Below are positions 1,242 through 63,044 of a DNA stretch of 64,000 bases, piece by piece. Position 1 is the stretch's first letter, and each line of letters begins with the position of its first letter. The notes below the pieces were generated by a model. That model saw only the letters and a list, made by a program, of their open reading frames with translations, had not been told where the DNA came from and did no database searches. Made by a program: the position numbers and the translations under genes. Source of the DNA: an uncultured Gemmatimonadaceae bacterium (lineage in GTDB: Bacteria; Gemmatimonadota; Gemmatimonadetes; Gemmatimonadales; Gemmatimonadaceae); NCBI GenBank assembly GCA_963829055.1, contig CAWHHI010000016.1, positions 704,001 through 768,000 of the forward strand, given 5' to 3'.

Positions 1242-1271
1242 GGCCTCGAGCGCACGGTCGAAGGGTGCACG

Positions 1272-2201
1272 TTAGGCGGAGCATAGTACCTGAGGTCGAT
1301 CTGTACAGCGGCCAGGTGATTCGAGGCATCGTACCACCTCGGCGGAGTGAGGCACGACGACCACGGAGCAATTCGCAGTTCTCGCGAGCATGTGCGCGAC
1401 ATCATCGTCATCCGTGGATGCGGGTACGCAACTACCAATGACAATAACGTCCGCGCTCAGCTTTCGAGCGACATCGATGATCATCCGCACTTGCTCACGC
1501 TTCGCTACCGCGTCGCGTCTCTCGACAGGGATACTCGTCTGCCGAGTTGGATACTCGACGCTCGCGAGTGAACCGACTGATGTCCTGTCCGCCAGGCGTA
1601 GCGACTGAACCCGAGCTGTGCAGGACGCCGCGACCATCTGCGCCACGGTGAGAACCGGTCCCGCAACGTCGCCGGCGAGAGCAGCGAGAACGGTCGTAGG
1701 CGCCGCCCGGACGTTGCGCGCAACGAGTCCCGGGCGAGCCAGTCGTCGCAGTAAACGGTGGGTCGTTGCGGTCTCGTGGCGCGGCGCCGCGCGAGACACG
1801 GCGTTCCCGCCAACGACGACGAGATCCGCCGCGACCATATCGGCGTACGCGGCTAGCTGCAGTGCCGGGTCCCCAACTCGTACCTCGACCCTGGTGTCGG
1901 TGCCGCCGACTACTCCCGACAGTCCGTGCAGCGCACCGCGCAGTGACTCGATGCGCCCTTGCAGTCGGCTTTCAAGGTCGGGTATCCGAGCCGAATGCAG
2001 CCGCGATACGTTAGGCGACGGCGGTGGCTCGACTACGTGAACGAGCGTGAGCGCTGCGTCACGTGCGAGATGGCGCCTCACCCACTGAGCGGCGGCTAGC
2101 GACACCTCAGAAAAATCGACGCCGACAACGATGCGATCGAGTGGCCGAGCGGTAACGTCTTGCTGGAATGCGTCTTTCCCGTGCGCGATTGCTGAGAGCA
2201 T
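1272..2201 (-). CDS. universal stress protein (tandem Usp domains)
   Basis: RIVVGVDFSEVS, VRVGDPA..L...A....ADLVVVG, C-terminal ANCSVVVVP; start inferred at ATG 2201. Confidence 0.85.
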   Translation of the reverse strand: MLSAIAHGKDAFQQDVTARPLDRIVVGVDFSEVSLAAAQWVRRHLARDAALTLVHVVEPPPSPNVSRLHSARIPDLESRLQGRIESLRGALHGLSGVVGGTDTRVEVRVGDPALQLAAYADMVAADLVVVGGNAVSRAAPRHETATTHRLLRRLARPGLVARNVRAAPTTVLAALAGDVAGPVLTVAQMVAASCTARVQSLRLADRTSVGSLASVEYPTRQTSIPVERRDAVAKREQVRMIIDVARKLSADVIVIGSCVPASTDDDDVAHMLARTANCSVVVVPHSAEVVRCLESPGRCTDRPQVLCSA

Positions 2202-2244
2202 GGCATTGTCTCCTGCCGTTAGGCACAACGGTTGAATTCCGTCT

Positions 2245-3552
2245 CTATGCGTACACACCGCGCAGCTCGTGCACCGCTGCCACGCGGCTCATCGCGAGCA
2301 TATAGGCGGCGGTGCGCATGCTCACCTGACGGGTCCGCGACAGCTCGTGCACTTCGCGGAAGCTCCGGACCATGGTTTCTTCGAGACGTTCGTTAACGAC
2401 CGTCTCCGTCCACGCGTATCCCGCACGGTTCTGCACCCACTCGAAGTACGACACCGTGACGCCTCCCGCGTTGGCGAGGATGTCCGGGATGACGAAGACC
2501 CCGTTCTCTTCCAGGATCGGATCGGCCGCAGCCGTGGTCGGGCCGTTCGCACCTTCGCAGATGATCTTTGCGCGAACGCGCGCCGCGTTCTTCGTCGTGA
2601 TCACGTTCTCGAGCGCCGCGGGCACGAGCACGTCGACGTCCAGCGTGAGCAGCTCGTCGTTCGTGATCGACGTGCCTTTGACATAGCCCTCGAGCGTCCC
2701 GTGTCTCCGCACCCACGCGGCGGCTTCGACAACATTGATCCCCCGCGCGTCGTACAGCGCGCCGGTTCGGTCGCCGATCGCAACGACACGAGCGCCCGCC
2801 CGCGATAGCTGCAGTGCGGCAACAGAACCCACGTTGCCGAACCCCTGCACTGCGACGGTCGCGCGCATCAACGACATGCCCCGCGCGCTGAGCGCCTCGC
2901 GCGTCGCGATCATGCAGCCGCGCCCGGTCGCCTCCCGCCGCCCGAGCGAGCCGCCCAGCGCCACCGGCTTGCCGGTCACGACCGCGGGGACGCTATGCCC
3001 CACGTGCATCGAGTAGGTGTCCATCACCCACGCCATCACGCGCTCGTTCGTGTTCACGTCTGGCGCGGGGACATCCGAGTCGGGGCCGAGCCCGTCGATG
3101 ATGGCGGACGTGTAGCGACGCGTTAGGCGCTCGAGCTCGCCCGGCGACATCGAGAACGGGTCGCACAACACGCCACCCTTCGCGCCGCCGAACGGCACAT
3201 CGACTACGGCACACTTCCAGGTCATCCAGGCTGCCAGCGCCGACACCTCATCGAGCGAGACGCGGGTGTCGAACCGGATGCCGCCCTTCCCCGGACCTCG
3301 CGCGGTGTTGTGCACCACGCGATGGCCGGTGAACACCTCGATCTCGCCGCTGTCCATTCGAACCGGAATCGCGACGGTGAGCTGCCGCTCGGGCTGGCGG
3401 AGTATCCGGTAGATGCCCGGATCCAGCTCGATCTCGGCTGCAGCGCGATCGAGCCGGGCCGCCATCGCGTCGAATGGATTCTCCTCGTGCGCGACGGAGT
3501 ACGTGGCGGGGAGTTCAGTCCTGCGACCGCGCACGAGCGTGTTCGTCGTCAT
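2245..3552 (-). CDS. gdhA: Glu/Leu/Phe/Val dehydrogenase (glutamate dehydrogenase)
   Basis: GPGKGGIR, MTWKCA, GGAKGG, VPAPDVNT, VQGFGNVG, EGANGP, PDILANAGGVTVSYFEW; GGAG RBS before ATG 3552. Confidence 0.93.
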   Translation of the reverse strand: MTTNTLVRGRRTELPATYSVAHEENPFDAMAARLDRAAAEIELDPGIYRILRQPERQLTVAIPVRMDSGEIEVFTGHRVVHNTARGPGKGGIRFDTRVSLDEVSALAAWMTWKCAVVDVPFGGAKGGVLCDPFSMSPGELERLTRRYTSAIIDGLGPDSDVPAPDVNTNERVMAWVMDTYSMHVGHSVPAVVTGKPVALGGSLGRREATGRGCMIATREALSARGMSLMRATVAVQGFGNVGSVAALQLSRAGARVVAIGDRTGALYDARGINVVEAAAWVRRHGTLEGYVKGTSITNDELLTLDVDVLVPAALENVITTKNAARVRAKIICEGANGPTTAAADPILEENGVFVIPDILANAGGVTVSYFEWVQNRAGYAWTETVVNERLEETMVRSFREVHELSRTRQVSMRTAAYMLAMSRVAAVHELRGVYA

Positions 3553-4457
3553 AATGATCTCCAACGTGACGGGTAAGGTGAATCGCGTCAGCGAGGAGAG
3601 AGATGGCCGGCGGGAATGTGCAGAAGGGCCCGGTAGTGGGAGTCGCGTGTCGCACCCGGGTCGTTACACACCGCGCCGGCGCCTCGCTTGGGTCGCGTGA
3701 CGCCATGATCAATCCATGAGCGATTGCGACCGGCCATGCGGCTGGCACCGATGCACGACGCCCCACCTGCGTTAGGCGCGGGTGGGGCGTTCGGGTGTGA
3801 CCCGTAACCGAGGCGGGCTACGCCGTCGAGCAGCGCTCCCGTCCACCCATCCCGCGTGGGCTCGTCGTGGCCGGCACGGACATCCGAGTTCCTCGGAGGT
3901 CCGCCGCACCACCGGCGCGTTGCAGGCGCTTGGCCGACACACGCGTGAGCCGCGCCCCCCGATTCGCACTCCAGCCGCGCTCCAATCTCTCAGGCGGGCA
4001 CAACCCGATCGGACGGCAGGCCATCGCTCGGCCGCCACCGGAAGTCGCGTCGGCGTGCACATCGTGCGCGCGAAGTGGAGAGAATGAGATCGGCATCATC
4101 ACAGAGTTGAACCCTCGTCGCGAAGATTAGTTCCCGGTCGTCACCGCGATAGCATTGCCGCCGCCGTCGTTGCGTCCGCTATGGATACTGATATGGGCGA
4201 AGTACCGATCGTCACGGCTGGCACGTGTGTTCGGCGCGTCTGACGTTACGGATCGGATCCGACGTCGACATCGGGATGTTTCGCTGTGCCCATCGCATCC
4301 GCAGTCAAGACGCGTAGGACAAACGCCGACACGGGTCGCGGGATGATCCGACAGACGGGGCAAGAAGCCCGGCATAGTTTGATCGCACGATGAGACGTGC
4401 TTGGCGGCGCGCGTGCCCGTACGTCCTGCCAGATGTCAGCGACGCCGGAGGTTTCAA

Positions 4458-4943
4458 ATGGTTGCTCTGTCTGAACGATCGATGGCCGACCGATGCATTG
4501 GGGTGTCGGCGGAACCCGGATGCGCGAAAGAGCATCTGGTCCGTCGCGGTCCAGTGGTTCTCGCCATCGACGGAGCGGAACGCGGCGGGTCAGCCGTCGT
4601 CGCGGCCCGGATGATCGCGGCACGGCTCGACCTCCCGCTCGAGGTCATCACCGTCCTCGAGCCGACACCGATGTCGGCGGCGACACTGGACGTCGGGGCG
4701 CGTGGTGATCCCGCCCACGACGACGCCCGCCGGCAGACGCGCGAGATCGCCATCACCGATTATGTGTGCCGCTTCTCGGGCGGCGACACGCCTCCCCGTG
4801 TTCACGTACGCGTCGGCAACGTCTCGGATGAGATCACGCGCTTCGCGCGCGCGGTATCCGCGACGACCGTCGTGCTGGGCAACGGCCTGACGGCGACACC
4901 GTCCGAGCTCGCCATCGGTCATCGGGTGCCGAACTTGCGTTAG
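4458..4943 (+). CDS. single-domain universal stress protein
   Basis: GGAGG RBS before ATG 4458; PVVLAIDG...A..IA.....LEVITVLEP...VRVGNVSDEI..FA. Confidence 0.7.
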   Translation: MVALSERSMADRCIGVSAEPGCAKEHLVRRGPVVLAIDGAERGGSAVVAARMIAARLDLPLEVITVLEPTPMSAATLDVGARGDPAHDDARRQTREIAITDYVCRFSGGDTPPRVHVRVGNVSDEITRFARAVSATTVVLGNGLTATPSELAIGHRVPNLR

Positions 4944-5162
4944 GCGCGGACGGCTGGTGTCGACAGCGTTGCGGGTGAGCCCGCGCATCCGCGTGTGGCG
5001 CCACCTCTTCGCGTTGGCCGCTTGAACGCGAGTCCGTCCGACCGAGCGCCCCAGCCCGAGAGGGTTGGCGTGACGTGGCCGACGATTTTCGAGACGCTGG
5101 CTCGTGCTCGTAGGGCATTCGATCACCAGCACGACGCAATGTCAGTCATCGGGGATGCAATC

Positions 5163-5348: not shown

Positions 5349-5759
5349 GTCGACAGACGTTAGGTAGCCGAGTTGCATACGCGGTTCGTTCGGCGATCGT
5401 TGCTGAGGCGTGAGTGCCTGTCCAACCCCAGTGGCCGGTGACTGCTGCCCATCCATGTTGGAGCTCCGATGAAACGACTCATGCCTAACGCCAACCGACG
5501 ATTGGCTTACGGCCGCGTGACTCGGCTCGCGGCGGGGTGCGTCACCGAGCGAGACGCGGGCGCCTGGGCGTCCGTCCAGGCGCATCACGCCTACCGAGGA
5601 GCGCAGAAAGGAGCGCAGCCATTCGAATCATGAGTGGCTGACCGCACCTACGTCGGCACTGGGCATCGTCCATCGCCCCGTCTGCGCTCGAAGCGCAGAC
5701 GGGGCGATGTGTTTCCACGGGATTACCAGTTCCTCTACGGATTGTAAAAGGAGGCTACC

Positions 5760-7169: not shown

Positions 7170-8351
7170 TCACGACCGCTCTGGGAGGACCAGGGTAAAC
7201 GTACTGCCGCGGCCCGGCTGACTTTCAACCTCGATGCGCCCGCCATGCCCTTCGGCGATCCCGTGTGCGATCACGAGGCCCAGCCCAGCCCCGCCTCGAC
7301 CCGATTCGTGCGCCTGCCAGAATCGGTCGAAGAGACGTGGAATGTTTTCGGTCGCGATTCCAACACCATTGTCTTCTACCCGAAATCGAACTGAATTGCC
7401 GTCGCGATTCACGGCAAGTGTCACTTTGCCGCCGCGTGGAGTGAACTTGATGGCGTTGCCGACGAGGTTGCCCACCGCCTGAACGACGCGGTCGACATCG
7501 GCATCGACCCAGAGCGCCGTTCCGACGGGCTCGACGACCAGCGTCACACCAGCAGTCGCCGCGGATGACGCGAACATGGAGCAGATCACCTCCGTGATCG
7601 CCTGAACGATCATCGGCTCTGGGTGGATCGTTAGGCGGCCGGCCTCGATCGCGGTGACGTCGAGCAGATCGCGGATGATTCGGAGCGCCCATTCACTCGA
7701 ACGCACAATCGCGTTCGCCAGTACGGGCAGCTCGCCGCTGCCCTCGAGCAGGGCGTTTGCCGACATGGCAATCGCGCTCAGCGGGCTCCGAAGATCATGC
7801 GAAACCATCCCCAGCACTTCGTCTCGCACACGAGCGGCGCGCTCTGCCGCCGCCCGCGCCGCGCGCTCGCTCGCGAGCAGCGCCTCGCGCTCACGACGCA
7901 GGCAATGGCGGTCGATTGCGTGACTGACGGCGTGTCGTACGATCTCCGCGCCATCACGACCCTTGATCAGGTAGTCCTGGGCACCCGCCTTGACCGCCGC
8001 AACGGCAAGGCTATGGTCGGCAACGTGTGCCATGACCACGATGGGAGCATCGGGAGCAGCGACGCACAGTGACTCGACACCTTCCAGGCCACTGGCGCCG
8101 AGTTGCGACAGGTCGAGCATCACGACGTCGAATCGCTCGGAAGCCAGACGTTCGCACGCCCTTACAACTTGGTCTTCGCGTTCGACGATCGTCTCCGGCG
8201 GGTGTCCGCCCGGGGCCCTGAAGTGGGCTCCGATTGTCGCAGCGTCTTCCGGTGAGGCGATCATCAACACACGCATGACGCTCTTGACGTTAGGCGACGA
8301 CGTAGCCAGGACCGGAGACACCGGCGGAGTCGAGCGAGTGATAGCAGGCAT
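7170..8351 (-). CDS. hybrid REC-histidine kinase
   Basis: REC (FDVVMLDL, GAQDYLIK), H-box SHDLRSPL, N-box NLVGNAIKFT, G-boxes DNGVGI and GAGLGL. Confidence 0.92.
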   Translation of the reverse strand: MPAITRSTPPVSPVLATSSPNVKSVMRVLMIASPEDAATIGAHFRAPGGHPPETIVEREDQVVRACERLASERFDVVMLDLSQLGASGLEGVESLCVAAPDAPIVVMAHVADHSLAVAAVKAGAQDYLIKGRDGAEIVRHAVSHAIDRHCLRREREALLASERAARAAAERAARVRDEVLGMVSHDLRSPLSAIAMSANALLEGSGELPVLANAIVRSSEWALRIIRDLLDVTAIEAGRLTIHPEPMIVQAITEVICSMFASSAATAGVTLVVEPVGTALWVDADVDRVVQAVGNLVGNAIKFTPRGGKVTLAVNRDGNSVRFRVEDNGVGIATENIPRLFDRFWQAHESGRGGAGLGLVIAHGIAEGHGGRIEVESQPGRGSTFTLVLPERS

Positions 8352-9040: not shown

Positions 9041-9556
9041 ATGAGACGTTTCGTAATTCCTGCCCTCGCCGCCGCGTTTTCCTTACGGTTACGCGGCATG
9101 GCTTCCGCTTCCCCAGCGGGCAACCACAACTCGCTCAGGGAAGGCACCACGCTCGGAATCATTGTTGCCACCGCCATTTGGGTGTGGCTCGCTGTGGTCG
9201 ACGCCGCTGCTGGCCAGCCGTTCCGGACGTTCGCGGCGCTGGGCGGTATCACCGTTTTCACCGTCGTGCACTACCTACTGAACATTGTGTACGGCGTGGT
9301 GATCGTGTCGGCGGTCCACGGCGCCGCCCGCGAACCGAGCGTGGCCCTCGCCCTCGCGTTCGGCCTGGTCACGTTCGAGATCGCACTCGCGATGGTAACA
9401 GTGCTGCTCTCACAGCTCGGGCTCGGGCAGCTCGCCTGGGTCCGGATCTTCGGCGGGAGCCTGGTGGGCGTAGCGGTTGCCCTGTTCCTGCTTTCCCGCC
9501 GGCATCCACTCGCGTCACAACTCCGGCACGCCGACCACACACACGACGCCACCTAA
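9041..9556 (+). CDS. hypothetical membrane protein (about 4 TM)
   Basis: GGAG RBS; several long hydrophobic segments. Confidence 0.7.
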   Translation: MRRFVIPALAAAFSLRLRGMASASPAGNHNSLREGTTLGIIVATAIWVWLAVVDAAAGQPFRTFAALGGITVFTVVHYLLNIVYGVVIVSAVHGAAREPSVALALAFGLVTFEIALAMVTVLLSQLGLGQLAWVRIFGGSLVGVAVALFLLSRRHPLASQLRHADHTHDAT

Positions 9557-9806
9557 CGACTATGCCGCCGACGTCGTTTCCTCCCCCGACTGCCAGGGTC
9601 GCGATCAGCGGCTTGGGACGAATCCGGCGCGCGATGCGGCGGCGGGGGCGCTCGCACGCGCGAGGATCTCGAGACGGTGGCCGCGAGAGCCCGGCTGGCG
9701 CCGAGATGCATGTCGGGGCCGCCGGTCCGTGCGGCGCTCGATCGTGGAGGGGGCAACGCCATCCTGTTTGGTAGGAGCAATGAATGCACAATGAAACTCC
9801 TCGAAT

Positions 9807-10877
9807 TCACCCATTGAAGTGCATCCCGTCGGTGCGAGCTCGATCCGGAAGACGTTCTTTTGACGAGGTCACGGCCCAACCCTTTCGGATTCGGTAGTCG
9901 TGCCGTGGGCTGACGTTCCCGGTTCCGCGCAACAGAACGAAACCGTCGAATGCGCGGAGGATTCGGCGCCTCGTACCATGAGAGACACGGTCTGCGACCG
10001 TAGCTGGCTGCCGATCGCCCACCGCAATCAGATCGGCGTTGGCGCGCTCGGCGTACGCCGTTAGGCGCGCGGCCGGCTCGCCGCGCAGTACGCGGCGCTT
10101 GACGGCGGCGATGCCGGAATGCGTGAGCGCTTTCTCGATTTCGGTGAACCTCACCGCCCATCCAACAGTGTCCTCTGCGTCTGCGGGGCCGTACGCCGCG
10201 GGCGCCTCCACGCCGTCGACGTGCACCAGGTGTACGGCCGCGCTCTCGGCGAGGACTCCGATCGTGGACGTCGCAATCGCGACGTCGGCGTCCCTCCCGT
10301 CAACGCCAACGATGGCTCGCGCTGGCAACGTGGAGGCCGACCGTGGTACGACAAGCACGGCAACACCACTACGCTGTGCCACCGCGAGAGCTGTTGGGCG
10401 CCGGAGCCAACGGGTAATCCAGCCACGACGGTTGCCCGTTACGATCAGATCGTGGCCACCGGTTCGCGCTGTTTCAGCAATGCTGTCGACAATGCTGCTG
10501 CTGTCGATGAGTCTGATGGTCCAGAATGGCGTGCCGTTCCCGAGAGCGCGCTGGCCCTGCGGGAGGACAGACGCGAGACGTTCTTCCAGTAGCTCGCCGG
10601 TGATGGCCAGAAACTCAGGGGCAGGAGGCGACTCCCCCCAGCGGGGGAGCACGCTCACCACATCTACCGTCGCGTGGTGCCGCCGTGCCAGAAGGCCCGC
10701 CACGGTGACAGCACCTTCCGATGCCGCCGTACCATCGGTGGCCACAAGGATGCGCGAGAGCCGCCGAGTTGTCCTCGACTCCGGTCGCTTGGCGACGCTA
10801 CGAATCTGCGCGGCGTGGGCCCGCGCGCGCCCGGCTCGGGCCGCGTGATGGACTTCGAACCGGATCGCGTTAGGCAT
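9807..10877 (-). CDS. universal stress protein (tandem Usp domains)
   Basis: RILVATDGT..S..A, DLIVTG, VLVVP, AIVGVDG, GEPA..L..YA....ADLIAVG. Confidence 0.85.
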   Translation of the reverse strand: MPNAIRFEVHHAARAGRARAHAAQIRSVAKRPESRTTRRLSRILVATDGTAASEGAVTVAGLLARRHHATVDVVSVLPRWGESPPAPEFLAITGELLEERLASVLPQGQRALGNGTPFWTIRLIDSSSIVDSIAETARTGGHDLIVTGNRRGWITRWLRRPTALAVAQRSGVAVLVVPRSASTLPARAIVGVDGRDADVAIATSTIGVLAESAAVHLVHVDGVEAPAAYGPADAEDTVGWAVRFTEIEKALTHSGIAAVKRRVLRGEPAARLTAYAERANADLIAVGDRQPATVADRVSHGTRRRILRAFDGFVLLRGTGNVSPRHDYRIRKGWAVTSSKERLPDRARTDGMHFNG

Positions 10878-11513: not shown

Positions 11514-11710
11514 CTCAGCCTCCTGCTTCGGAGTAACATCACACTACCAGCGCCCATCCCGGCGAAAAGCACTACCGCCAGAGGGATCGGCACGAATGGG
11601 GCAACACCGACGGCGAGAACGGCCGCGGCAGCGAGCAGTAGAACGGTGAACGCGACTTTCGTTAGGCGTGGCGCACCCTCCCCCGTCACGACGGCTGGTA
11701 GCACCCGCAT
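11510..11710 (-). CDS. small 2-TM membrane protein, translationally coupled
   Basis: TAATG overlap with the upstream gene and ATGA overlap with the DksA-like gene; two hydrophobic helices. Confidence 0.65.
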   Translation of the reverse strand: MRVLPAVVTGEGAPRLTKVAFTVLLLAAAAVLAVGVAPFVPIPLAVVLFAGMGAGSVMLLRSRRLR

Positions 11711-37887: not shown

Positions 37888-37912
37888 GCGTTCCGGCCTA
37901 ACGTCCGACGCA

Positions 37913-54141: not shown

Positions 54142-55998
<1,857 letters not shown>

Positions 55999-56830: not shown

Positions 56831-58779
56831 CTACGGCCGCGGGCCACCAAGCGTCGCGCGCGCTCCGAGGAGCACCGTTCGGCCAGGTGCCGCGAACCCG
56901 AAGGTTGGTTCGTACTCGTGATCGAGCGCGTTCTCGATGCGCGCGGTCAGCGTTAGGTGCGACGCGCCCGCCCACAGGCGATCCAACGCTGCCTCAGCGC
57001 TCAGATCCAGGAGCGTGTAGGACGGCAGCTCGACACGCGCTTCCGCATTGAAGTCGCGGTCGTCGCGTGGCCCGATGAATCGAACGGCAGCCCCGACGCG
57101 AGATCCGCGCGCGAGCCGGTAGTCGGCGTTGAACGCCGCGGTGTGTGCGGGTCGCCGCAACAAGCGCTCCCCATTCACGAACGTGCCGAACGCGCCGTTC
57201 CCGGCGTCCGTGACGCGGGTTCGGAGCAAGGTGACGTTCGCGCCGAGGTCGAACGCGCCAACCATCGGTGCTCGCGCTTCGAGCTCCACTCCACGGGCGG
57301 ACGCGGCACCGAGGTTCTCATAGGTGCTCCGAAACTCGGTCGACGCGTCACCGGAGACATACTGGATGAGATCGCGGAAGCGCTGGTCGAAGTACGTCGC
57401 GCTTGCGAGCACGCGCTCACCGAATCGGTGCTGGGCGGACGCTTCCCAGCTCATGGTCCGTTCGGGCTGCAGATCGGGGTTCCCGATGCTGAACGCGGAT
57501 GAGAGCGCCTCCTCGAACGCCGGTGCCTTGAATGCATTCCCGACGGCGGCGCGTACGCTTGTCAATGCGAGGAGCTGCCAGGCGAGCGAAGCACGCCCGG
57601 TGACGAACGTACCGTACGTCGCGTTGTCGTCCACGCGGCCGCTGGCCGTATACGTTAGGCGCCCGAGTCCGGCGCCGATGAGCTGCGCGTACGACGGCTT
57701 CGTTCGTTCGATGCGCTGCCGTAGACGACGTCGATACCGGGAATGTCATGAACTGGCTCTCGCCCGAGCTCCGGACCTGCTCTCGCTCGACCGCTCCGCC
57801 GACCGAGAATGTCGTCTTGTCGTTGGCGTGCACATCAGCGCGCAGGTCTGCGCTCCGCCGCTCGATGCGCGAATCATCGCGGCTGTAGAACCCCGCGCTG
57901 TCGCCGGGGCTGTCGGGATCGTTCGACGATTCACCGTCCAGGCGCGATGCGGCTCCCAACAGTCGCAGATCGATACGCGACGTTAGGCGGTGGGTCGCAT
58001 CGAGTCCGATCACCGTCCGGTGATCGCGACGGACGGAATTGCTATCGACCACCGCACCGGAGCCGTCCGTTGGAAAATGGTACGTCGCGTCCGTGTGCCG
58101 AGCAGTGAGGTCCACCGACGCGAACGACGGAGCGAACGAGAGGCGTGCGCTCTCCGACCTGATTTCGATAGTCGTTGTTGAACGCGAAGATGCCGTCGCT
58201 CTGACGCCTCGACGCACCGAGCGAGTAGCCGACCCGCGGCGTTCCTCCGGCGATGTTGGCTTCTCCCTCGAGGCTCCCATACGACCCGCCCCGAACGTCG
58301 GCGAATCCATGTGCGGAACCGGCGCCGCGCCGCGTGAAGAGTTGCACGACACCGGCGACGGCATCCGATCCGTACACGACGCTCGCGGGGCCGCGCACGA
58401 CTTCGATGCGATCGAGGTTCTCCGTGGTGAGATTCGCGAAATCGAAGGCGCCGCCGGGGTTGTTCAGCGGCACGCCGTCCACGAGCACCTTCACGTAGTC
58501 ACTCTCCCCTCCGCGGGCGAAGAGCGACGTCGTCGCGCCGAACGAGCCACTTCGAACGACCATCAAGCCCGGGACGGAGGCGAGCGCGTCGCTCACGTTG
58601 GCGATGCCGCGCGATCGCAGGTCCTCGCCGCGAATGACGGTCACGGACGCCGGCGCACGCTGCTGGTCGATCGGTACGCGGGTCGCGCTGATGACGACCG
58701 GGCGAAGCACCGTCGTGTCGGTCGACTGCTGGGCAAGCAAAGGTGTGGCGAGAAGGCAGAGACTGAAAAGCAGTTTCAT
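56831..58779 (-). CDS. btuB: TonB-dependent vitamin B12 receptor, frameshifts near 58165 and 57700
   Basis: signal peptide, VVISATR, VDGVPLN, RIEVVRGPASVVYGSDAVAGVV, GNPDL.PE, EN.LD..Y; lies in the riboswitch-led operon. Confidence 0.82.
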
Positions 58780-58880
58780 TGTCTGACGGGAAGCGGGAAC
58801 GGCGGCTGGTGGCTGGGTGGTCGTGCTTGTTGCTGGGTGACGCTGGATGCTGCTGAGTGCTGCTTGCCGATTGCTGCTCG

Positions 58881-59670
58881 TTAGGATCTCCTCCCTGCGC
58901 GCAGCGGCACGAGCGCCGGGGCGCCGACGGCCGGGTCGCGCGTGACCACGAGTGGCCAGTCGTACACACGCTCCAGCACGTCGCCGCGCATCACGTCAGC
59001 CGGCGTCCCCGCGGCGGCGACGGCCCCGCGGTGCAGCAACACGACGTGCTGCGCGAAACGCGCGACGAGGTTCAGCTGGTGGCTCACGACGAGAATCGCC
59101 TGGCCACGTCGTGCAAGGACGTCGAGCAGCTCGAACGCCGACATCTCGTGCGCAATGTCGAGGTACGTGGTCGGCTCATCGAGCACGAGTGCCTTCGCGT
59201 CCTGCGCGAGCGCTCGGGCAATGCGCACGCGCTGCCACTCGCCCCCCGACAGCTCGTCCGTCGTGCGACCCATGAACGCGGCGACCTCGGCCTCGTCGAC
59301 GGCGCGGGCAACGGCGGCCGCGCCTAACGGGTCGGCGGTGCTCCACAGACGCGTATGCGGGTGACGCCCAAGCGCAATGTACTCGCGCACGGCGAGCGGG
59401 AAGGCAGGTTCCTCGCGCTGCGACACCACCGCCACTCGCCGCGCCAGTTCGCGACGGTCGAGGTGCGCCGTGTCCTCACCATCGACATTGATGGCACCCC
59501 CGCTCAACGGCACGCGGCCGAGCAGGGCGCGGACGAGCGTGCTCTTTCCGCTCCCGTTAGGCCCCGCGACCGCGGTGATAGCGCCCGGGAGGCACCTCGA
59601 ACGACACGTGATTCACCGCAGGCTCGGCCGCCTTCGGATATCGCACGACGACGTCGTCGAAGCGGATCAT
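58881..59670 (-). CDS. btuD: cobalamin ABC ATP-binding protein, frameshift near 59580
   Basis: GPNGSGKS, LSGGEWQR, LDEPT..LD. Confidence 0.85.
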
Positions 59671-60653
59671 CGGTAGCGACGGAGCTGAACGAGGAAAAAC
59701 GGGACGCCGGCGAGCGCTGTCACGGCGCCAAGCGGCAGCTCGCTCGGCGCGCGCAACGTGCGGGCGACGAGATCCGCCGCAATGAGCAGCGCCGCACCCG
59801 CAAGCCCGGCCGCCGCAATGACCGCACGGTGGCGCCGACCGGCGCGCGAGCGCACGAGGTGTGGCACCACCAGGCCGACGAAGCCGACAAGCCCTGCGGC
59901 CGCGACAGTCGCAGCGGCCAGCAGCGATGCGAGGATGTACGCGCGGCGGCCGGCTCGGTCGACGTCGACACCGAGCCCCGCGGCCGCGTCGTCGCCGAGC
60001 GCGAGCACGTCGATCTCTGGCGCCCAGAGCAGCAGCGCACTTGCCGAAGCGATCGCGTACGCCGCGAGCCATCCAACCTGCACCCAGGTCGCGCCGGCGA
60101 CGGAGCCCATCATCCACCACAGCGCATTGCGGACCGCGTCCGGTGGCGCCGACGCCAGCGCGACCATGATCACGGCGTTCGCGAACGCACCGACGACTAC
60201 GCCCGCCATGAGAAGCACGCGTGGATCTGGCCGCCCGGCGCCTGCACGCGCGATCGCGAGGACGAGCACGACGGCGACGACAGCACCCCCGAACGCACCC
60301 ACCGGCACGAACCCGAACGGCGCTCGGCTCGCGACCGCGATGACCGCGCCGACCGCCGCACCGCCGGACACGCCCAGCAGATACGGCTCGGCGAGTGGGT
60401 TGCGCATCGTGCCCTGGAGTGCGGCTCCGCTCATCGCGAGCGCCGCCCCGACGAGCGCCGCGAGGACGACGCGAGGCGCCCTGATGTCGCGCATGATGGC
60501 GACGGCCGTAAGGTCGCCCCGTCCAGCGAGCGCCGTCCACACTTCGGCTGGCGTTAGGCGCACCGGCCCGATCCCGAGTCCGAGGAGGGCAGCGACTCCC
60601 ACCGCGGCCAAGAGCCCGACCCAGAGCGCGACGTTCGATCGCGTCACCGTCAC
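59667..60653 (-). CDS. btuC: cobalamin ABC permease (FecCD family)
   Basis: IRAPR, RNPLAEPYLLGVSGGA, GFVGLVVPH, ELPLG..TA..G.PFF. Confidence 0.88.
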   Translation of the reverse strand: MTVTRSNVALWVGLLAAVGVAALLGLGIGPVRLTPAEVWTALAGRGDLTAVAIMRDIRAPRVVLAALVGAALAMSGAALQGTMRNPLAEPYLLGVSGGAAVGAVIAVASRAPFGFVPVGAFGGAVVAVVLVLAIARAGAGRPDPRVLLMAGVVVGAFANAVIMVALASAPPDAVRNALWWMMGSVAGATWVQVGWLAAYAIASASALLLWAPEIDVLALGDDAAAGLGVDVDRAGRRAYILASLLAAATVAAAGLVGFVGLVVPHLVRSRAGRRHRAVIAAAGLAGAALLIAADLVARTLRAPSELPLGAVTALAGVPFFLVQLRRYR

Positions 60654-61592
60654 GGCACGGCCCCTGGGTGGAGCAGGCGCGCGAGCGACACTGCCGCCTC
60701 GCCTAACCGCACCCCCGGCCGGCCCACCAGCATTGTGTCCACGATGAGGACGCGGCCGTCTCGCACGGCACGCAGCGCGCGCCAGGCGGGCGCCGCGCGC
60801 ATGCGCCGGGCGGATTCCGGGCCCGCGAGGACGACATCCGGGTCGCGCCTAACGACGTCTTCGATGGTCACGTCGAGTGACGGCCGCGGATCATCGCCGT
60901 AAATGTTGCGGCCGCCGGCAATCTCCACCAGCTCGGTGAGAAAACTGCCGCCGCCGATCGCGATCACCGGGGAATCCCAGGCCTTCCAGAACGCCGCGGG
61001 CCTCACCGCGCCCTGTGTCGCGGCCCGAACGCGTGCGAGCGTCCGGTCGACGGAGTCGACGACGGCATGCGCGGCGGTGGTGTCGCCGAGCACGCGTCCC
61101 AGCACCAACACCGTGCGGCGAAATTCCGCGATGCGATCGACGCGAAGGGTGAGCGTCGGAACGCCGGCCGCGCGGAATCGCTTCGCCGCGTCGCGGTTCT
61201 CGTTGCTGGCGTAAAGCACGACGAGGTCCGGACGCGCGCCGAGCACTGCCTCGACGTTAGGCTGCATGCCATTCCCGAGGTCAGGCACGGCGAGCGCGGC
61301 GCTCGGATAGAGATCGTAGTGCGTGCGGCCGACGAGGCGGTCACCAGCGCCGAGCACGAAGAACAGCTCGGTGGTCGCCGGATTCAGCGAGACGATGCGG
61401 CGCGGCGACGGGCCCAGCACGAGTGTATCGCCGAAATCATCCTGGATCGTCGAGACCCCGAGCGGCCGAACTGGCTTGCGCACGCGGTGATGCCCGTTCG
61501 GCGGATGGCCGATCACACGCCGCGCTCGCGCCCAGCAACGCCGCGAGGGCGACGAACGGGAACCGCGACCGGCGATGATGCACGAAGGGCAT
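60650..61592 (-). CDS. btuF: cobalamin-binding lipoprotein, frameshift near 61455
   Basis: lipobox SAAC, DD.G, RIVSL.P..TE..F.LG, P.VE.VL...PDLV; start 61592 or GTG 61583. Confidence 0.85.
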
Positions 61593-61687
61593 CCTCCTGA
61601 TGGGAAGATGCCCGGGCAGATGCGCCGCGCCTGGTGCGAAGCCGCAAATTGCCACAAGCCCCTCCCCCGAGGGCGTGTGTACGTGGC

Positions 61688-61832
61688 GCGGACGACGAGT
61701 CGTCTCCTGGCTCCGGGCCGCGTCGCTCGCCTTCCCGACCGAAGTCAGTGGCGTGCCGAGCGCGCGTGTATGCCCGTTACAGTGGCGGGGCCGCACCGGC
61801 ATTGCACCGGTTTCCGGGTCTCCCGTCCGCTT
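61688..61832 (-). promoter_or_regulatory. cobalamin (B12) riboswitch
   Basis: minus strand GGAAACCGGTGCAATGCCGGTGCGGCCCCGCCACTGTAA...GCCACTG...GGGAAGGC...AGCCAGGAGAC, upstream of btuF; ends approximate. Confidence 0.92.
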
Positions 61833-61850
61833 TCGAGTTGTGCCGCGAAT

Positions 61851-63044
61851 CTAGACCGCGACTTCCTCGTTGGCAAGCACCGCGGTGAGTTGCGCCTTCA
61901 GTGCATCGCGTCGCGCCTGATACGATGCGCGCTGCGCATCGGTCGCCGATGCGTTGCGCGCGAACGCCTCGTCGAGGTCGGCAATGTCACGCGCGAGGTG
62001 AGCGGCATCAGGCGGCGCGTTGTCGCCCGCGACGACCGTGACGGGACGTCGCCTCGTTAGGGCGACCGCCAGCGCGAGACACATGATCGTCCCCGCCGCA
62101 ATCATGAGCACCGGGAGAAAGCGGTTGCCGCGCGGCGCGGTTGGCGCGCCAACGCCGATGGTGATCTGCCCACCCTGACGCACATCCTGTCCGAGGAATC
62201 GTCGGAATCGACGACCCTCCAACGTGGCGACGGGTTGCTCTGCAAGGCCACCACCGGCGACCGTCGCATCCGGATCCTCGACGAGCACCTCGAACACGCC
62301 GACCGACTCGGCAACGGGAACGGCGAGCGGAAAGTCCGCAGCCGGTACCGAATACGAGAACGCGACTTGGCGAATGCCCGGCGAGATCGACGCGTACGCG
62401 AGGACGCGGCCGTCGCGGAATTGCACCGCGTTGCTGCCGATGTCGCTCTGGCCGACCTGGAAGTCCGTCGCGTTAGGCGGCAGCGCCGTGCTCCAGGTGG
62501 CGCGGCCGCGCGCGCCCGGCACTGCCGTGACTGTGGTGTCGTTGGAGAGCTCGAACACCTCGACCAGCGTTCGTCGTCCGTCGACGCCGCTCGCGGACAC
62601 GACGAGATGCCGTCCTCGCGTACGCACCGGGACCGGGGCCAATGTCGTGTCGAAGACGGTGATCTCTCCGGCGTCACCAGCCGCATCGGTCGCAGGAAGT
62701 GGCGCGGTGAAATACGCGACGCCACCGAACATGCTCGCCGCGAAGTACACCGCGTCGCCGGCGACGGGCTTGTAGCGCATCGAGTATCGTCCGTTCGCGT
62801 CCGAGCGAACGGAGTCCACCGGTCCGCTGCTGTCGGCCGCGACACGGTGCAGCGTCACCCACGCGCCCGGCACCGTGATCATGCCGCTCCGACCGGGACG
62901 CACCACGCGCCCACTCACCGTACGCGGTGCCAGAGACTGCGGAGCAGCGCGACTGGCCGTATCCTGCGCGATCGCCACCTGGGCGCTCAGCATCGCGCCG
63001 AGCGCGAGTCCAGCACCACGCGCGAACGCCGACCGAGCACTCAC
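61851..63044 (-). CDS. hypothetical exported, membrane-anchored protein (N-terminal beta-sandwich)
   Basis: signal peptide, VSGRV..PGA.VTL..SDANGRY, C-terminal TM and LA..IA.LD..F coil. Confidence 0.7.
   Translation of the reverse strand: MSARSAFARGAGLALGAMLSAQVAIAQDTASRAAPQSLAPRTVSGRVVRPGRSGMITVPGAWVTLHRVAADSSGPVDSVRSDANGRYSMRYKPVAGDAVYFAASMFGGVAYFTAPLPATDAAGDAGEITVFDTTLAPVPVRTRGRHLVVSASGVDGRRTLVEVFELSNDTTVTAVPGARGRATWSTALPPNATDFQVGQSDIGSNAVQFRDGRVLAYASISPGIRQVAFSYSVPAADFPLAVPVAESVGVFEVLVEDPDATVAGGGLAEQPVATLEGRRFRRFLGQDVRQGGQITIGVGAPTAPRGNRFLPVLMIAAGTIMCLALAVALTRRRPVTVVAGDNAPPDAAHLARDIADLDEAFARNASATDAQRASYQARRDALKAQLTAVLANEEVAV

What the first reader, a model, noticed from the sequence alone, without database searches (positions are those of the whole stretch)
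1270..62478. Highly iterated non-palindromic octamer CGTTAGGC/GCCTAACG, written into coding sequence
Seen: by manual scan, at least 54 exact copies (about 33 on +, 21 on -; e.g. 1270, 2009, 3121, 7629, 13087, 27469, 36845, 48026, 55855, 62471), plus about 9 CGTTAGG-N variants. A base-composition estimate at about 68% GC predicts only 2-3. Copies occur in core and accessory genes in several reading frames, forcing codons that are rare here: ACG-TTA-GGC for the conserved MrpB DTLGE (27469), TCG-TTA-GGC in the MFS ASSLG (19710), GTT-AGG and CTA-ACG in clpB, and several stop codons (1272, 4943, 10870). The duplicated att repeats differ exactly at this motif (GCCTAACG at 43044 vs GCCTGACG at 44240; CGTTAGGA at 44148 vs CGTCAGGA at 42954), suggesting ongoing drive toward it. 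Inference: a lineage-specific chromosomal signal comparable to cyanobacterial HIP1, DNA-uptake sequences, Chi or a nucleoid-protein site. I know of no description of this motif.
Basis: partly seen in the sequence, partly recalled or inferred. Interest (0 to 1): 0.88.

Follow-up and report, generated by a model that had tools for sequence, protein, structure and literature searches.

The report
Genome-wide integron-core DNA word
This soil bacterium has written the eight-letter DNA word CGTTAGGC about 5,000 times, evenly spaced, through its genes and spacers against its own codon habits, much like the self-recognition tags that Neisseria and Haemophilus use for DNA uptake, and the word is spelled like the recombination core of integron gene cassettes; what reads it is unknown.

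Summary
In detail: 54 exact copies in the window against about 1 expected, and 5,004 in the 7.78-Mb genome. In confident genes the word is 46 times commoner than a codon-aware null predicts.

The word has no conserved flanks, no replichore skew, and sits in every frame that avoids its own stop codons. It fills 23.5% of all synonymous opportunities. Copies avoid each other below about 300 bp whichever strand they lie on. 55% of sites are kept in a congener, against 19% of all octamers.

The word is enriched in 64 of 201 genomes of the family and in 25 of 41 Chthoniobacterales (Verrucomicrobiota), where it is extended to TCGTTAGGC.

It equals the GTTAGGC box at the ends of the integron attC sites of both clades. 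Integrase presence does not track the enrichment. ComEC and a PilQ-like secretin are found almost everywhere. RecC was not found, and ComP and Vsr do not track it.

This scan has found the same word before in other genomes. I found no published description.

The parts
1270..1277 (+). exact copy; no gene called here
2009..2016 (+). exact copy; no gene called here
2217..2224 (+). exact copy; no gene called here
3121..3128 (+). exact copy in glutamate dehydrogenase gene 2245-3564(-), read as xGC-CTA-ACG
3770..3777 (+). exact copy; no gene called here
4938..4945 (+). exact copy; its TAG is the stop of ORF 4554-4943(+)
5483..5490 (-). exact copy; no gene called here
7629..7636 (+). exact copy in ORF 7170-8123(-), xGC-CTA-ACG
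8288..8295 (+). exact copy; no gene called here
10059..10066 (+). exact copy in ORF 9807-10661(-), xGC-CTA-ACG
10868..10875 (+). exact copy; its TAA (minus strand) is the stop of ORF 10870-11103(-)
11660..11667 (+). exact copy; no gene called here
11977..11984 (-). exact copy in ORF 11807-12277(-), xxC-GTT-AGG-C
13087..13094 (+). exact copy; no gene called here
14776..14783 (-). exact copy in ORF 14393-15223(+), xxG-CCT-AAC-G
15718..15725 (-). exact copy; missed by my gene caller, lies in the frameshifted stress-protein-like ORF 15624-16523(+)
16676..16683 (+). exact copy just upstream of ORF 16686-17387(+)
18284..18291 (+). exact copy; no gene called here
19337..19344 (-). exact copy in ORF 18411-19427(-), xxC-GTT-AGG-C
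19710..19717 (-). exact copy at the 3' end of the MFS transporter gene (19712-20986, -), xCG-TTA-GGC in ORF 19476-19727(-)
21944..21951 (-). exact copy in L,D-transpeptidase gene 21009-22685(-), xxC-GTT-AGG-C
23239..23246 (-). exact copy in ORF 23200-23919(-), xCG-TTA-GGC
25079..25086 (+). exact copy in ORF 25041-25742(-), xxG-CCT-AAC-G
25161..25168 (-). exact copy in ORF 25041-25742(-), xCG-TTA-GGC
26977..26984 (+). exact copy near the 3' end of MnhB-like ORF 26959-28101(-)
27469..27476 (-). exact copy in MnhB-like ORF 26959-28101(-): ACG-TTA-GGC = T-L-G of DTLGE
28375..28382 (-). exact copy in Mrp antiporter gene 28010-29704(-), xxC-GTT-AGG-C
29002..29009 (+). exact copy in Mrp antiporter gene 28010-29704(-), xxG-CCT-AAC-G
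31248..31255 (-). exact copy in ORF 30547-31329(+), xxG-CCT-AAC-G
31458..31465 (+). exact copy; no gene called here
32150..32157 (+). exact copy in ORF 31493-32317(-), xGC-CTA-ACG
32744..32751 (+). exact copy in amidohydrolase-like ORF 32726-34045(-), xGC-CTA-ACG
33365..33372 (-). exact copy in ORF 32726-34045(-), xCG-TTA-GGC
35657..35664 (+). exact copy in multicopper oxidase gene 34663-36792(+), xCG-TTA-GGC
36107..36114 (-). exact copy in multicopper oxidase gene, xGC-CTA-ACG
36845..36852 (+). exact copy; no gene called here
37896..37903 (-). exact copy in ORF 37728-38990(-), xCG-TTA-GGC
42814..42821 (-). exact copy; no gene called here
43044..43051 (-). exact copy inside the left att repeat; the right repeat has GCCTGACG at the same place
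43817..43824 (+). exact copy; no gene called here
45873..45880 (-). exact copy in glycosyltransferase-like ORF 44733-46574(-), xCG-TTA-GGC; kept in G001
47704..47711 (-). exact copy in clpB (47093-49846, -), xxC-GTT-AGG-C; kept in 3 of 3 aligned congeners
48026..48033 (+). exact copy in clpB, xGC-CTA-ACG; not kept in 3 aligned congeners
51183..51190 (+). exact copy in ORF 50541-51410(-); not kept in 3 aligned congeners
51970..51977 (+). exact copy in ORF 51446-52192(-); not kept in 3 aligned congeners
55855..55862 (+). exact copy in SelB-like elongation factor gene 54773-56308(-), xxG-CCT-AAC-G; kept in 5 of 5 congeners
57653..57660 (+). exact copy; no gene called; not kept in 5 congeners
57981..57988 (+). 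exact copy; no gene called; kept in 1 of 5, one-letter variants in the others
59322..59329 (-). exact copy in ORF 58881-59513(-); not kept in 5 congeners
59555..59562 (+). exact copy; no gene called; kept in 3 of 5 congeners
60552..60559 (+). exact copy in ORF 59667-60653(-); kept in 3 of 4 congeners
60847..60854 (-). exact copy in ORF 60650-61516(-); kept in 3 of 4 congeners
61255..61262 (+). exact copy in ORF 60650-61516(-); kept in 3 of 4 congeners, CGTTAGGT in the fourth
62471..62478 (+). exact copy in ORF 61851-63044(-); kept in 4 of 4 congeners
5358..5365 (+). last-letter variant CGTTAGGT
9551..9558 (-). last-letter variant CGTTAGGT
18639..18646 (+). last-letter variant CGTTAGGT
19868..19875 (+). 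last-letter variant CGTTAGGT
42778..42785 (+). last-letter variant CGTTAGGA
44148..44155 (+). last-letter variant CGTTAGGA in the right att repeat (left repeat: CGTCAGGA)
52393..52400 (-). last-letter variant CGTTAGGG
56951..56958 (+). last-letter variant CGTTAGGT
58879..58886 (+). last-letter variant CGTTAGGA
62055..62062 (+). last-letter variant CGTTAGGG

Best explanation
CGTTAGGC is a genome-wide recognition word of the uptake-sequence kind (DUS of Neisseriaceae, USS of Pasteurellaceae).

Proposed mechanism: a protein reads the duplex word in either orientation. DNA segments that carry one copy are favoured, most plausibly during uptake and recombination of DNA from relatives. That bias, or selection on it, writes the word by point changes wherever the protein sequence allows, until roughly every 0.5-1.5 kb holds one copy.

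Shown here:
- the size of the excess;
- its independence of reading frame, strand and codon bias;
- the strict inner GTTAGG with tolerant outer letters;
- short-range, orientation-independent mutual exclusion of copies;
- positional conservation between species;
- an on/off distribution among relatives and a second phylum with a longer dialect;
- identity with the integron attC core.

Inferred, not shown:
- that the favoured step is DNA uptake;
- that any protein binds the word;
- that the integron match is causal.
For: Size of the excess. There are 5,004 copies, 2,547 on one strand and 2,457 on the other, making it the 14th commonest octamer in a 66.7% GC genome. Confident CDS hold 2,793 against 60.6 expected under a codon-aware null.

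DNA-level signal. No flank carries information. All four stop-free frames are used, with the rare codons TTA, AGG, CTA and CCT.

Saturation. 2,791 of 11,875 synonymous opportunities are filled; for P-N contexts it is 756 of 1,291. My arithmetic gives a log odds of 3.9-5.1 in all four contexts, as if one uniform pressure acted on each site.

Density is held constant. It stays at 0.55-0.63 per kb across codon-bias quintiles while occupancy rises from 19.8% to 29.4%.

Even spacing. Genome-wide there are 215 gaps under 200 bp against 611 expected. Against a null that picks sites at random among the real opportunities, within-gene pairs under 100 bp number 21 against 148 +/- 10, and pairs under 200 bp number 76 against 276 +/- 14.

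The exclusion is the same for same-strand and opposite-strand pairs and ends near 500 bp. A nearby copy in either orientation therefore makes a second one redundant. This is expected for a per-fragment tag and not for a site-by-site mutational bias.

Conservation. 84 of 153 sites are exact in G001 at 79% overall identity, against 19.1% of all octamers. In the window, 26 of 54 comparisons with five congeners are exact. Sites that are not conserved mostly differ by several letters, as reported for new DUS (PMC2397512, passages read).

Variants. Only outer-letter variants are enriched: CGTTAGGT 440 observed against 18.5 expected, TGTTAGGC 289 against 14.9. Inner-letter variants sit at the general level of TTAG-containing words.

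Distribution. 64 of 201 family genomes are at 2x or more of the reversed control and 116 are below 0.3x. One genus holds three rich genomes and one poor one. 25 of 41 Chthoniobacterales relatives are rich. There the word carries T before it in 94-95% of copies, which parallels DUS dialects (PMC3630211, abstract seen in a search listing).

Uptake hardware. ComEC is present in 31 of 31 genomes and a PilQ-like secretin in 195 of 201, though below the family's curated cut-off.
Against: - No uptake experiment exists, and none of the genomes examined is identified as a cultured organism.
- ComEC and the secretin are equally present in word-poor genomes, so they explain nothing about the on/off pattern.
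- The Neisseria receptor family ComP_DUS was not found in G000. Its 21 of 201 hits are mostly weak, and the genus that matched in all its sampled genomes (g11, 4 of 4) is word-poor.
- ComEA is only a weak, short hit in G000.
- DUS are reported as rare in accessory DNA. Here the parts of a 383-kb G001 sample that do not align to G000 hold 0.87 copies per kb, against 0.52 in the aligned parts.
- One integrase-bearing mobile element is richer than the host, with 22 copies in 18.7 kb.
- The redundancy range of about 300 bp is short for typical transforming fragments.
- Two phyla sharing one word is not expected from independent uptake systems.
Confidence: 0.45

Rival explanations
1. The word is the binding or recombination site of an integron-type tyrosine recombinase (IntI), or of another chromosomal DNA-binding protein that shares the attC R-box specificity. 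It would be kept at regular spacing for a local chromosomal function, such as landing or mobilisation sites for gene cassettes, or a nucleoid-protein site.
For: The word contains GTTAGGC, which fits the integron core GTTRRRY; its reverse fits RYYYAAC (PMC3053210, passages read).

In word-poor relatives nearly all copies sit at attC ends in one-strand cassette arrays beside intI.

The R' box is GTTAGGC in 38 of 38 Gemmatimonadales attCs and 27 of 36 Verrucomicrobial attCs. The letter C before it matches the Gemmatimonadales R' side in 36 of 38. The Verrucomicrobial extension (C)TC matches the bases next to R'': G in 36 of 36, A in 32 of 36, G in 30 of 36.

G000 has an IntI, at 265.7 bits against a cut-off of 265, with attC-like sites beside it. 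IntI-like genes occur in 127 of 201 family genomes.

IntI1 inserts cassettes at short GWT genome sites as duplex DNA (bioRxiv 10.1101/2022.09.11.507474, passages read).
Against: - IntI presence does not track the enrichment: 46 of 64 rich against 81 of 137 other genomes, Fisher p = 0.087 with no correction for kinship.
- No IntI-like hit at E <= 1e-30 in the richest Verrucomicrobial genome, G032, or at E <= 1e-45 in G004 (92% complete); in G014 the gene is in pieces.
- Genome-wide copies have no attC-like flanks.
- Of 60 indel breakpoint ends between G000 and G001, 6 lie within 40 bp of a copy, against about 3 expected.
- In Gemmatimonadaceae the attC letters further out (C or T, then T) are not seen genome-wide.
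- It is unclear what would select 5,000 such sites, 60% of them inside genes.
Confidence: 0.22
2. The word is a by-product of a methylation-linked or repair-linked drive, as proposed for cyanobacterial HIP1 and for Dcm/Vsr sites. A methyltransferase marks the word and a mismatch nickase converts near-matches into it.
For: - The on/off distribution among close relatives and the sharing between phyla suit a mobile modification system.
- The reverse strand CCTAAC has the form of the asymmetric 6-7 bp adenine-methylation sites of MmeI- and BREX-type enzymes (recalled, not tested).
- Mobile elements living in such hosts also carry the word.
Against: - A site-by-site conversion process predicts independent sites. 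Copies instead exclude each other below about 300 bp, and density per kb is constant whatever the number of opportunities.
- Vsr was found in 34 of 201 genomes, 9 of them among the 64 rich ones (my hand count), and in none of the sampled genomes of genera g1 or g9, G000 included.
- The word is not palindromic.
- Near-match words are not specifically depleted once the general avoidance of TTAG is allowed for.
- Methyltransferases were not tested.
Confidence: 0.08
3. The word is a Chi-like signal that tames a helicase-nuclease at double-strand breaks.
For: - It is a non-palindromic octamer like E. coli Chi (recalled).
- Its density of one per roughly 3 kb per orientation would serve two-ended breaks.
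- It is scarce in three long stretches that may be foreign DNA.
Against: - RecC was found in 0 of 31 genomes.
- On contig C16 only 366 of 665 copies (55%) lie on the G-rich strand (my sums).
- Chi acts in one orientation only, yet opposite-strand copies exclude each other as strongly as same-strand copies.
- The excess is far above that known for Chi.
- AddAB and AdnAB were not tested.
Confidence: 0.05
4. The copies are an assembly or basecalling artefact of a long-read metagenome assembly.
For: - G000 has only 20 contigs and carries single-base indels relative to other studies' contigs at 53733, 53956/53957, 54115 and 61461.
- It has at least one frameshifted gene.
Against: - The same word is at comparable density in six congeners assembled into 260-1,170 contigs, and at the same aligned positions.
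- It is found in 64 of 201 family genomes and in a second phylum.
- None of the 40 listed differences to four independent runs' contigs lies in a copy.
Confidence: 0.01

Closest known systems
DNA uptake sequences: DUS of Neisseriaceae and USS of Pasteurellaceae
   Same: - A short non-palindromic word at about 0.6-1.5 copies per kb, in equal numbers on both strands.
- Inside genes in several frames and also between genes.
- Highly conserved in otherwise variable surroundings; new copies differ by several letters from the homologous sequence.
- Spacing more even than chance.
- Lineage dialects.
- Long word-free stretches.

(PMC2397512 passages read; PMC3630211 abstract from a search listing.)
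   Different: - 8 letters rather than 9-12.
- No paired copies forming terminators: only 12 opposite-strand neighbours lie within 60 bp.
- Not depleted in unalignable DNA.
- ComP not found in G000.
- One core word shared by two phyla.
- Identical to the integron core site.
- Uptake bias untested.
Integron recombination sites: attC R' and R'' boxes, the attI core, and the non-classical genomic attG sites
   Same: The word has the spelling GTTAGGC / GCCTAAC, which fits GTTRRRY / RYYYAAC. The attC sites of integrons in the same two clades end with exactly this word (PMC3053210).
   Different: - Genome-wide copies lack the attC palindrome.
- They lie mostly inside ordinary conserved genes, arose by point changes that keep the protein, and occur in genomes with no detectable IntI.
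- attG sites need only GWT (bioRxiv 10.1101/2022.09.11.507474).
HIP1 of cyanobacteria
   Same: A hyper-abundant octamer at about one per kb, written into genes, patchy among lineages, function unknown (recalled).
   Different: HIP1 is a palindrome with a GATC centre and has been linked to methyltransferases (recalled). This word is asymmetric, and Vsr does not track it.
Chi and the FtsK-orienting KOPS words
   Same: Non-palindromic octamers read by DNA motors (recalled).
   Different: Those words are strongly co-oriented with replication. This one is 55:45 on the one contig with a clear GC-skew switch. RecC was not found.

Membership tests
DUS/USS uptake sequences | Short word hundreds to thousands of times per genome, about one per kb, equal on both strands | tested here: met
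   5,004 copies in 7.78 Mb, 2,547 and 2,457 by strand. The forward share is 0.466-0.532 in all 42 genomes with a ratio of 5 or more.
DUS/USS uptake sequences | A DNA-level signal: inside genes in several frames and against codon usage | tested here: met
   2,793 observed against 60.6 expected under a codon-aware null; all four stop-free frames used. 23.5% of synonymous opportunities are filled.
DUS/USS uptake sequences | Spacing more even than chance, on the scale of recombined fragments | tested here: met
   Copies exclude each other below about 300 bp in both relative orientations. The fragment size in this organism is unknown.
DUS/USS uptake sequences | Copies conserved between species more than their surroundings | tested here: met
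   84 of 153 sites (55%) against 19.1% of all octamers in G000 versus G001; 26 of 54 in the window.
DUS/USS uptake sequences | Rare in recently acquired or accessory DNA | tested here: inconclusive
   Three stretches of 31-50 kb at contig ends hold no copy, and two of them have a higher GC. However, the unaligned parts of the G001 sample hold 0.87 per kb against 0.52 in the aligned parts.
DUS/USS uptake sequences | DNA import machinery present | tested here: met
   ComEC in 31 of 31 genomes. PilQ-like secretin in 195 of 201, all below the curated cut-off. Both are equally present in word-poor genomes.
DUS/USS uptake sequences | A dedicated receptor (ComP minor pilin in Neisseria) | tested here: not met
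   PF16732 has no hit in G000. Its 21 of 201 hits do not follow the enrichment. The one strong hit, in G230, lies in a pilin cluster found in one of five genomes of that genus.
DUS/USS uptake sequences | Word-dependent bias of DNA uptake or transformation | not testable with these tools
   Needs an isolate and labelled-DNA competition.
Integron att sites | Core GTTRRRY / RYYYAAC | tested here: met
   GTTAGGC lies within the word. It is identical to the R' box of 38 of 38 and 27 of 36 local attCs. Definition from PMC3053210.
Integron att sites | Imperfect palindrome (attC) or integrase-proximal position (attI) | tested here: not met
   No flank information around the 5,004 copies. Only a handful near C20:202790-207189 look like attC sites.
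Integron att sites | Integron integrase in the genome | tested here: inconclusive
   G000 has one, at 265.7 bits. Across the family it is 46 of 64 rich against 81 of 137 others. Metagenome bins often lose integrons.
Chi | Read by RecBCD or AddAB; co-oriented with replication; acts in one orientation | tested here: not met
   RecC in 0 of 31 genomes. 55% on the G-rich strand of C16. Opposite-strand copies are mutually redundant. AddAB not tested.
HIP1 / very-short-patch repair words | Palindrome tied to a methyltransferase and Vsr-type repair | tested here: not met
   The word is asymmetric. Vsr is in 34 of 201 genomes, 9 of them rich, and in none of genera g1 or g9. Methyltransferases not tested.
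REP/MITE-type dispersed repeats | Conserved sequence beyond the core, spread by copying | tested here: not met
   The information content of the flanks is 0.13 bit or less per position. Copies sit in conserved codons of orthologous genes.

The most novel reading that the evidence does not exclude
The word is not an arbitrary self tag. It would be a reader specificity aimed at the conserved end of integron attC sites.

Two unrelated soil clades, some Gemmatimonadaceae and some Chthoniobacterales, would have evolved or exchanged a DNA-recognition step that prefers DNA ending in the local attC box. That step is most likely at uptake. The boxes are CGTTAGGC in one clade and (C)TCGTTAGGC in the other, the latter matching the bases beside R''. 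These bacteria would therefore preferentially import gene cassettes, which incoming single strands can hand directly to an integron (shown for Vibrio in PMC12614218). The same preference, acting on DNA from relatives, would have driven the word through their own chromosomes.

A bolder variant: with a core site beside almost every gene, IntI could mobilise any chromosomal gene, which would make these lineages the long-sought birthplaces of new cassettes.
Probability: 0.15. Interest if true: 0.95.

Novelty: new variant of a known kind. Interest (0 to 1): 0.78.

Why it matters
Sequence-tagged self-recognition of DNA is known experimentally from only two proteobacterial families. A word of the same behaviour in abundant, mostly uncultured soil phyla would widen that biology.

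It would also give a direct handle on gene flow in soil. The word marks native DNA, islands and mis-binned contigs, and its dialects mark lineages.

Its identity with the integron core site in two phyla links two fields that have not been joined: genome-wide iterated words, and the origin and traffic of gene cassettes.

Practically, the word alone explains most TTA codons: 1,410 of 2,401 in confident genes lie in it. It also accounts for a quarter of TAA stops, 133 of 543. Codon-usage and gene-finding models for these genomes should allow for this.

Tried and rejected
Calls that failed
I checked the format on the window and ran the scan with a 400-425 gap.
- One search failed because 'of' needs a genome handle. 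I obtained handles and repeated the search.

Checks of the repeat itself
- Tandem-repeat origin of the one-strand arrays in relatives: none found. They are cassette arrays.
- Special loci with clustered copies in G000: 24 places with three or more copies within 400 bp, none standing out.
- Copies as recombination breakpoints: 6 of 60 indel ends lie within 40 bp of a copy, against about 3 expected. BLAST alignment ends are imprecise, so this gives no signal.

Searches for a reader
- Unusual cross-phylum similarity: a tblastn of 436 well-covered G000 proteins against 400 kb of G031 gave only EF-Tu and other housekeeping genes at the top. This covers about a tenth of that genome and is not informative.
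- Reader candidates by family: ComEC, ComEA-type HHH_3, PilQ, ComP_DUS, RecC, Vsr, IntI. None separates rich from poor genomes.

Other words in word-poor relatives
- None in G008 or G066.
- Only weak words, at 0.12-0.15 per kb, in G063 and G065.

Viral contigs
- The paired-word pattern hit only 32 of 2.9 million contigs.
- Most hits are chance pairs, one is an attC array (L220), one is a word-rich integrative element (L223), and four are copies of one 46% GC phage.

Read laying
- Contigs only, so there is no methylation or start/end information.
- Parts of the differences table were not shown.

Flank tracking
- My first attC-end script used a filter that was too strict. It was replaced.
- I then dropped my earlier idea that Gemmatimonadales attC flanks are variable; they are C or T, then T.
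- The flank-tracking argument therefore rests on the Verrucomicrobial dialect alone, roughly a 1-in-16 to 1-in-32 coincidence.

Gene calls
- They come from a crude caller of my own (73-78% coding).
- It misses frameshifted genes, so 'no gene called' is not proof of a spacer.

Full report
WHAT IS THERE

The window is G000:C16:704001-768000 of a 7.78-Mb, 20-contig genome of 66.7% GC. Random stretches of about 430 bp from two MAGs titled 'Gemmatimonadaceae bacterium' match it at 76% and 70% DNA identity, about the level of its own congeners (65-97% per aligned piece, 70-86% for the long pieces). I therefore take it to be a member of that family.

CGTTAGGC occurs 54 times in the window, 33 on + and 21 on -, against a mean of 1.06 in shuffles. 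Genome-wide it occurs 5,004 times (2,547 and 2,457 by strand), the 14th commonest octamer although it contains TTA. No position outside the eight letters carries more than 0.13 bit, so it is not part of a longer repeat.

A DNA-LEVEL SIGNAL

Gene calls are my own rough ones. With them the word is found as:
- xCG-TTA-GGC: 1,217 copies
- xxC-GTT-AGG-C: 444
- xGC-CTA-ACG: 577
- xxG-CCT-AAC-G: 873
- almost never in the two frames where it reads TAG or TAA: 10
- at gene edges: 332
- outside called genes: 1,551

In 4,301 confident CDS an exact codon-aware expectation, with codon usage computed after masking the word, is 60.6 against 2,793 observed. Other words of the form NNTTAGNN reach only 0.13 of that null when two or more letters away from the word. 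The true excess is therefore several hundred-fold.

Of 2,401 TTA codons in those genes, 1,410 lie in the word. 133 of 543 TAA stops and 104 of 1,126 TAG stops are supplied by it. Density peaks modestly at stop codons, at 1.5 per kb against about 0.6.

Only outer-letter variants are enriched:
- CGTTAGGT: 440 observed, 18.5 expected
- TGTTAGGC: 289 observed, 14.9 expected
- CGTTAGGG: 230 observed, 54 expected
- the double variant TGTTAGGT: only 5 copies

CGTCAGGC (1,082 against 420) and CGTTATGC (380 against 74) are mildly enriched. The other inner-letter variants sit at the TTAG baseline.

SATURATION AND SPACING

Of 11,875 places where the protein sequence allows the word synonymously, 2,791 carry it:
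- [SPTA]-L-G: 23.5%
- [CRSG]-L-T: 20.6%
- V-R: 11.7%
- P-N-[VADEG]: 58.6%

Against the expectations this is a log odds of 3.9-5.1 in each context (my arithmetic), as if one uniform pressure acted on every site.

Density is 0.55-0.63 per kb in every codon-bias quintile, while occupancy rises from 19.8% to 29.4% as opportunities fall. Strongly biased genes do not avoid the word.

Copies avoid each other:
- Genome-wide, 215 neighbour gaps are under 200 bp against 611 expected from an exponential distribution.
- When the same number of sites is drawn at random from the real opportunities, within-gene pairs under 100 bp number 148 +/- 10 against 21 observed. Pairs under 200 bp number 276 +/- 14 against 76 observed. 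More genes than expected hold at least one copy: 1,972 against 1,882 +/- 17.
- The pair-correlation function is 0.1-0.3 below 100 bp, about 0.5 at 150-200 bp, and reaches 1 near 500 bp. It is the same for same-strand, convergent and divergent pairs.

I regard this as the most informative new result. A second copy within about 300 bp is redundant whichever strand it is on. This speaks against any site-by-site mutational or repair bias and against an orientation-dependent reader such as Chi. It speaks for a per-segment requirement.

STRAND AND REPLICATION

There is no replichore skew. On C16, where GC skew changes sign near 570 kb, 163 of 280 copies lie on the G-rich strand on one side and 203 of 385 on the other, 55% overall (my sums).

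CONSERVATION

Congeners are only about 72-79% identical in DNA. Even so, 84 of 153 aligned G000 sites are the exact word in G001, and 13 more are CGTTAGGT, against 19.1% of all octamers. In the window, 26 of 54 site-by-genome comparisons with five congeners are exact. Sites that are not kept usually differ by two to four letters.

DISTRIBUTION

All seven genomes of the genus are rich, with 2,501-5,112 copies.

In 201 genomes of 77 genera of the family, the ratio to the reversed control word is:
- 2 or more in 64 genomes (28 genera)
- 10 or more in 23 genomes (8 genera)
- below 0.3 in 116 genomes

One genus has three genomes at 12-16 and one at 0.35.

A collection scan for two opposed copies 400-425 bp apart hit mostly Gemmatimonadaceae and Chthoniobacterales, Verrucomicrobiae or Spartobacteria MAGs. 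Four such Verrucomicrobial genomes hold 2,494-4,562 copies in 3.2-4.2 Mb, while an Acidobacteriota genome holds 76. 25 of 41 relatives of G032 are rich and 16 have fewer than 80 copies.

In Verrucomicrobia the word is longer. T precedes it in 95% of copies in G031 and 94% in G032. In G031, C precedes that T in 72%.

A word-poor family member (G008) and a word-poor Verrucomicrobial genome (G066) have no other hyper-abundant word of 7-11 letters. G063 and G065 have only weak ones.

These tallies include genomes flagged unpublished (G013, G039, G096, G097, G195).

THE INTEGRON CONNECTION

In word-poor relatives the few copies cluster on one strand at spacings of about 500-600 bp. These clusters are cassette arrays. 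Each copy ends a conserved attC of about 95 nt, and an integron integrase lies beside the array in G021:C80 and G031:C7.

In 38 Gemmatimonadales attCs:
- R' is GTTAGGC in 38 of 38, preceded by C in 36
- R'' is followed by A

In 36 Verrucomicrobial attCs:
- R' is GTTAGGC in 27 and GTTAGGT in 9, preceded by TG
- R'' is followed by G (36), A (32), G (30); read on the other strand this is (C)TC-GTTAGGC, the Verrucomicrobial genome-wide dialect

GTTRRRY and RYYYAAC are the defining integron core sites (PMC3053210, passages read).

The core match is far beyond chance. By my estimate an octamer contains the consensus heptamer by chance at about 2 in 8,192. The flank match is only suggestive.

IntI is common in the whole family, with IntI-like hits in 127 of 201 genomes. 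It does not track enrichment: 46 of 64 rich against 81 of 137 others. No IntI-like hit passed the thresholds used in rich G032 (E <= 1e-30) or G004 (E <= 1e-45). G000 has one integrase with attC-like sites on the same strand.

CANDIDATE READERS TESTED

- ComEC: 31 of 31 genomes
- PilQ-like secretin: 195 of 201
- ComEA-type: nearly all, weak in G000
- ComP_DUS: 21 of 201, not following enrichment, none in G000
- RecC: 0 of 31
- Vsr: 34 of 201, 9 of them rich, none in the genus

None explains the on/off pattern.

MOBILE DNA

Three stretches of 31-50 kb at contig ends have no copy, and two of them have 70-73% GC. They are either islands or chimeric joins.

One 'viral' contig (L223, 72% GC) carries an integrase, a replication initiator, an HNH endonuclease and repressors. 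It holds 22 copies in 18.7 kb. By my reading of the coordinates, about 10 of them sit at junctions of minus-strand genes.

A 46% GC phage contig, present four times in the collection, has 7 copies in about 12 kb.

ARTEFACT CHECK

The assembly has single-base indels relative to other studies' contigs and a frameshifted gene. The word is nonetheless confirmed by other genomes and by aligned positions.

LITERATURE

- The octamer as a string occurs in 478 papers. The 20 listed were unrelated uses such as primers.
- Searches joining Gemmatimonadetes/-ota, Verrucomicrobia, Gemmatimonas or Chthoniobacter with uptake sequences, octamers or attC found nothing relevant.
- Papers read in passages: the attG preprint, PMC12614218 on transformation feeding integrons, PMC3053210, and PMC2397512 on DUS evolution.
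- Supplements were not consulted.

EARLIER NOTES OF THIS SCAN

The same word has been reported several times in other Gemmatimonadaceae windows, and TCGTTAGGC in Chthoniobacterales windows, with the same uptake-like reading, the integron match and an unknown reader. I saw the attC arrays before the first look-up. The cross-phylum hint prompted.

VERDICT

This is a real, very strong, DNA-level genome word. Its behaviour fits uptake-type self tags best (0.45). An integron-recombinase or other chromosomal binding site is the main rival (0.22). The integron-core identity in two phyla is the feature that no known system explains.

Noticed in passing
window 42945-43125 and 44140-44320; tRNA-Ser(gga) 44264-44352(-): A direct repeat of about 180 bp that includes the 3' part of tRNA-Ser brackets a 1.2-kb insert. 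The insert holds one small ORF (43108-43575, -, weak lumazine-binding-like hit). This looks like the scar of a small integrated element. The two repeats differ at two word positions.
   Followed up: partly
window 15624-16593; 53733, 53956-53957, 54115, 61461: A stress-protein-like gene is split by a frameshift. Contigs of three or four other studies lack single bases present in this assembly. These look like long-read indel errors and explain the low coding density (73-78%) of my gene calls.
   Followed up: partly
window 58785-58876 and 44696-44726: A stretch of about 60-90 bp between two genes has dozens of 78-90% identical copies across G001. A 29-31-bp stretch recurs at 94-97% identity in all five congeners. 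These are unexamined dispersed repeats.
   Followed up: no
G000 C6:5440-55037, C11:1-46789, C6:591808-623330: Three word-free stretches of 31-50 kb, all at contig ends, two with 70-73% GC against 66.7%. They are either acquired islands or chimeric joins in the bin.
   Followed up: partly
G000 C20:200000-209000: The genome's integron: an integrase at 208041-208958(-), just at the family cut-off. Five or more attC-like sites ending in the word lie downstream on the same strand, so the integrase appears to point towards the array.
   Followed up: partly
L223 (IMGVR_UViG_3300031938_000010), 1-18690: An integrative element or temperate phage of 72% GC with 1.18 word copies per kb, about twice the host density. 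By my reading of the gene and copy coordinates, about 10 copies serve as the GCC-TAA-CG stop between tightly packed genes.
   Followed up: partly
L211, L217, L222, L230 (four IMG/VR contigs, same sequence): A 46% GC phage contig with 7 word copies in about 12 kb, roughly 20 times chance by my estimate, without shared flanks. Its host is unknown and may belong to another word-using lineage.
   Followed up: no
G000 C12:39890-43880 and C20:368410-378713: Eight EF-Tu-like ORFs in two clusters all hit the single tuf region of the Verrucomicrobial sample. They may be fragmented or duplicated tuf genes, or bin contamination.
   Followed up: no
G063:C2:1-200000 (L312-L321): This word-poor Verrucomicrobial genome has two weak words at about 0.12-0.15 per kb. 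One (TCCTAACA / TGTTAGGA) shares the GTTAGG centre with different outer letters.
   Followed up: no
window 32970-33054, 44264-44352, 44446-44536: Three tRNA-Ser genes lie in the window, two of them with anticodon CGA.
   Followed up: no
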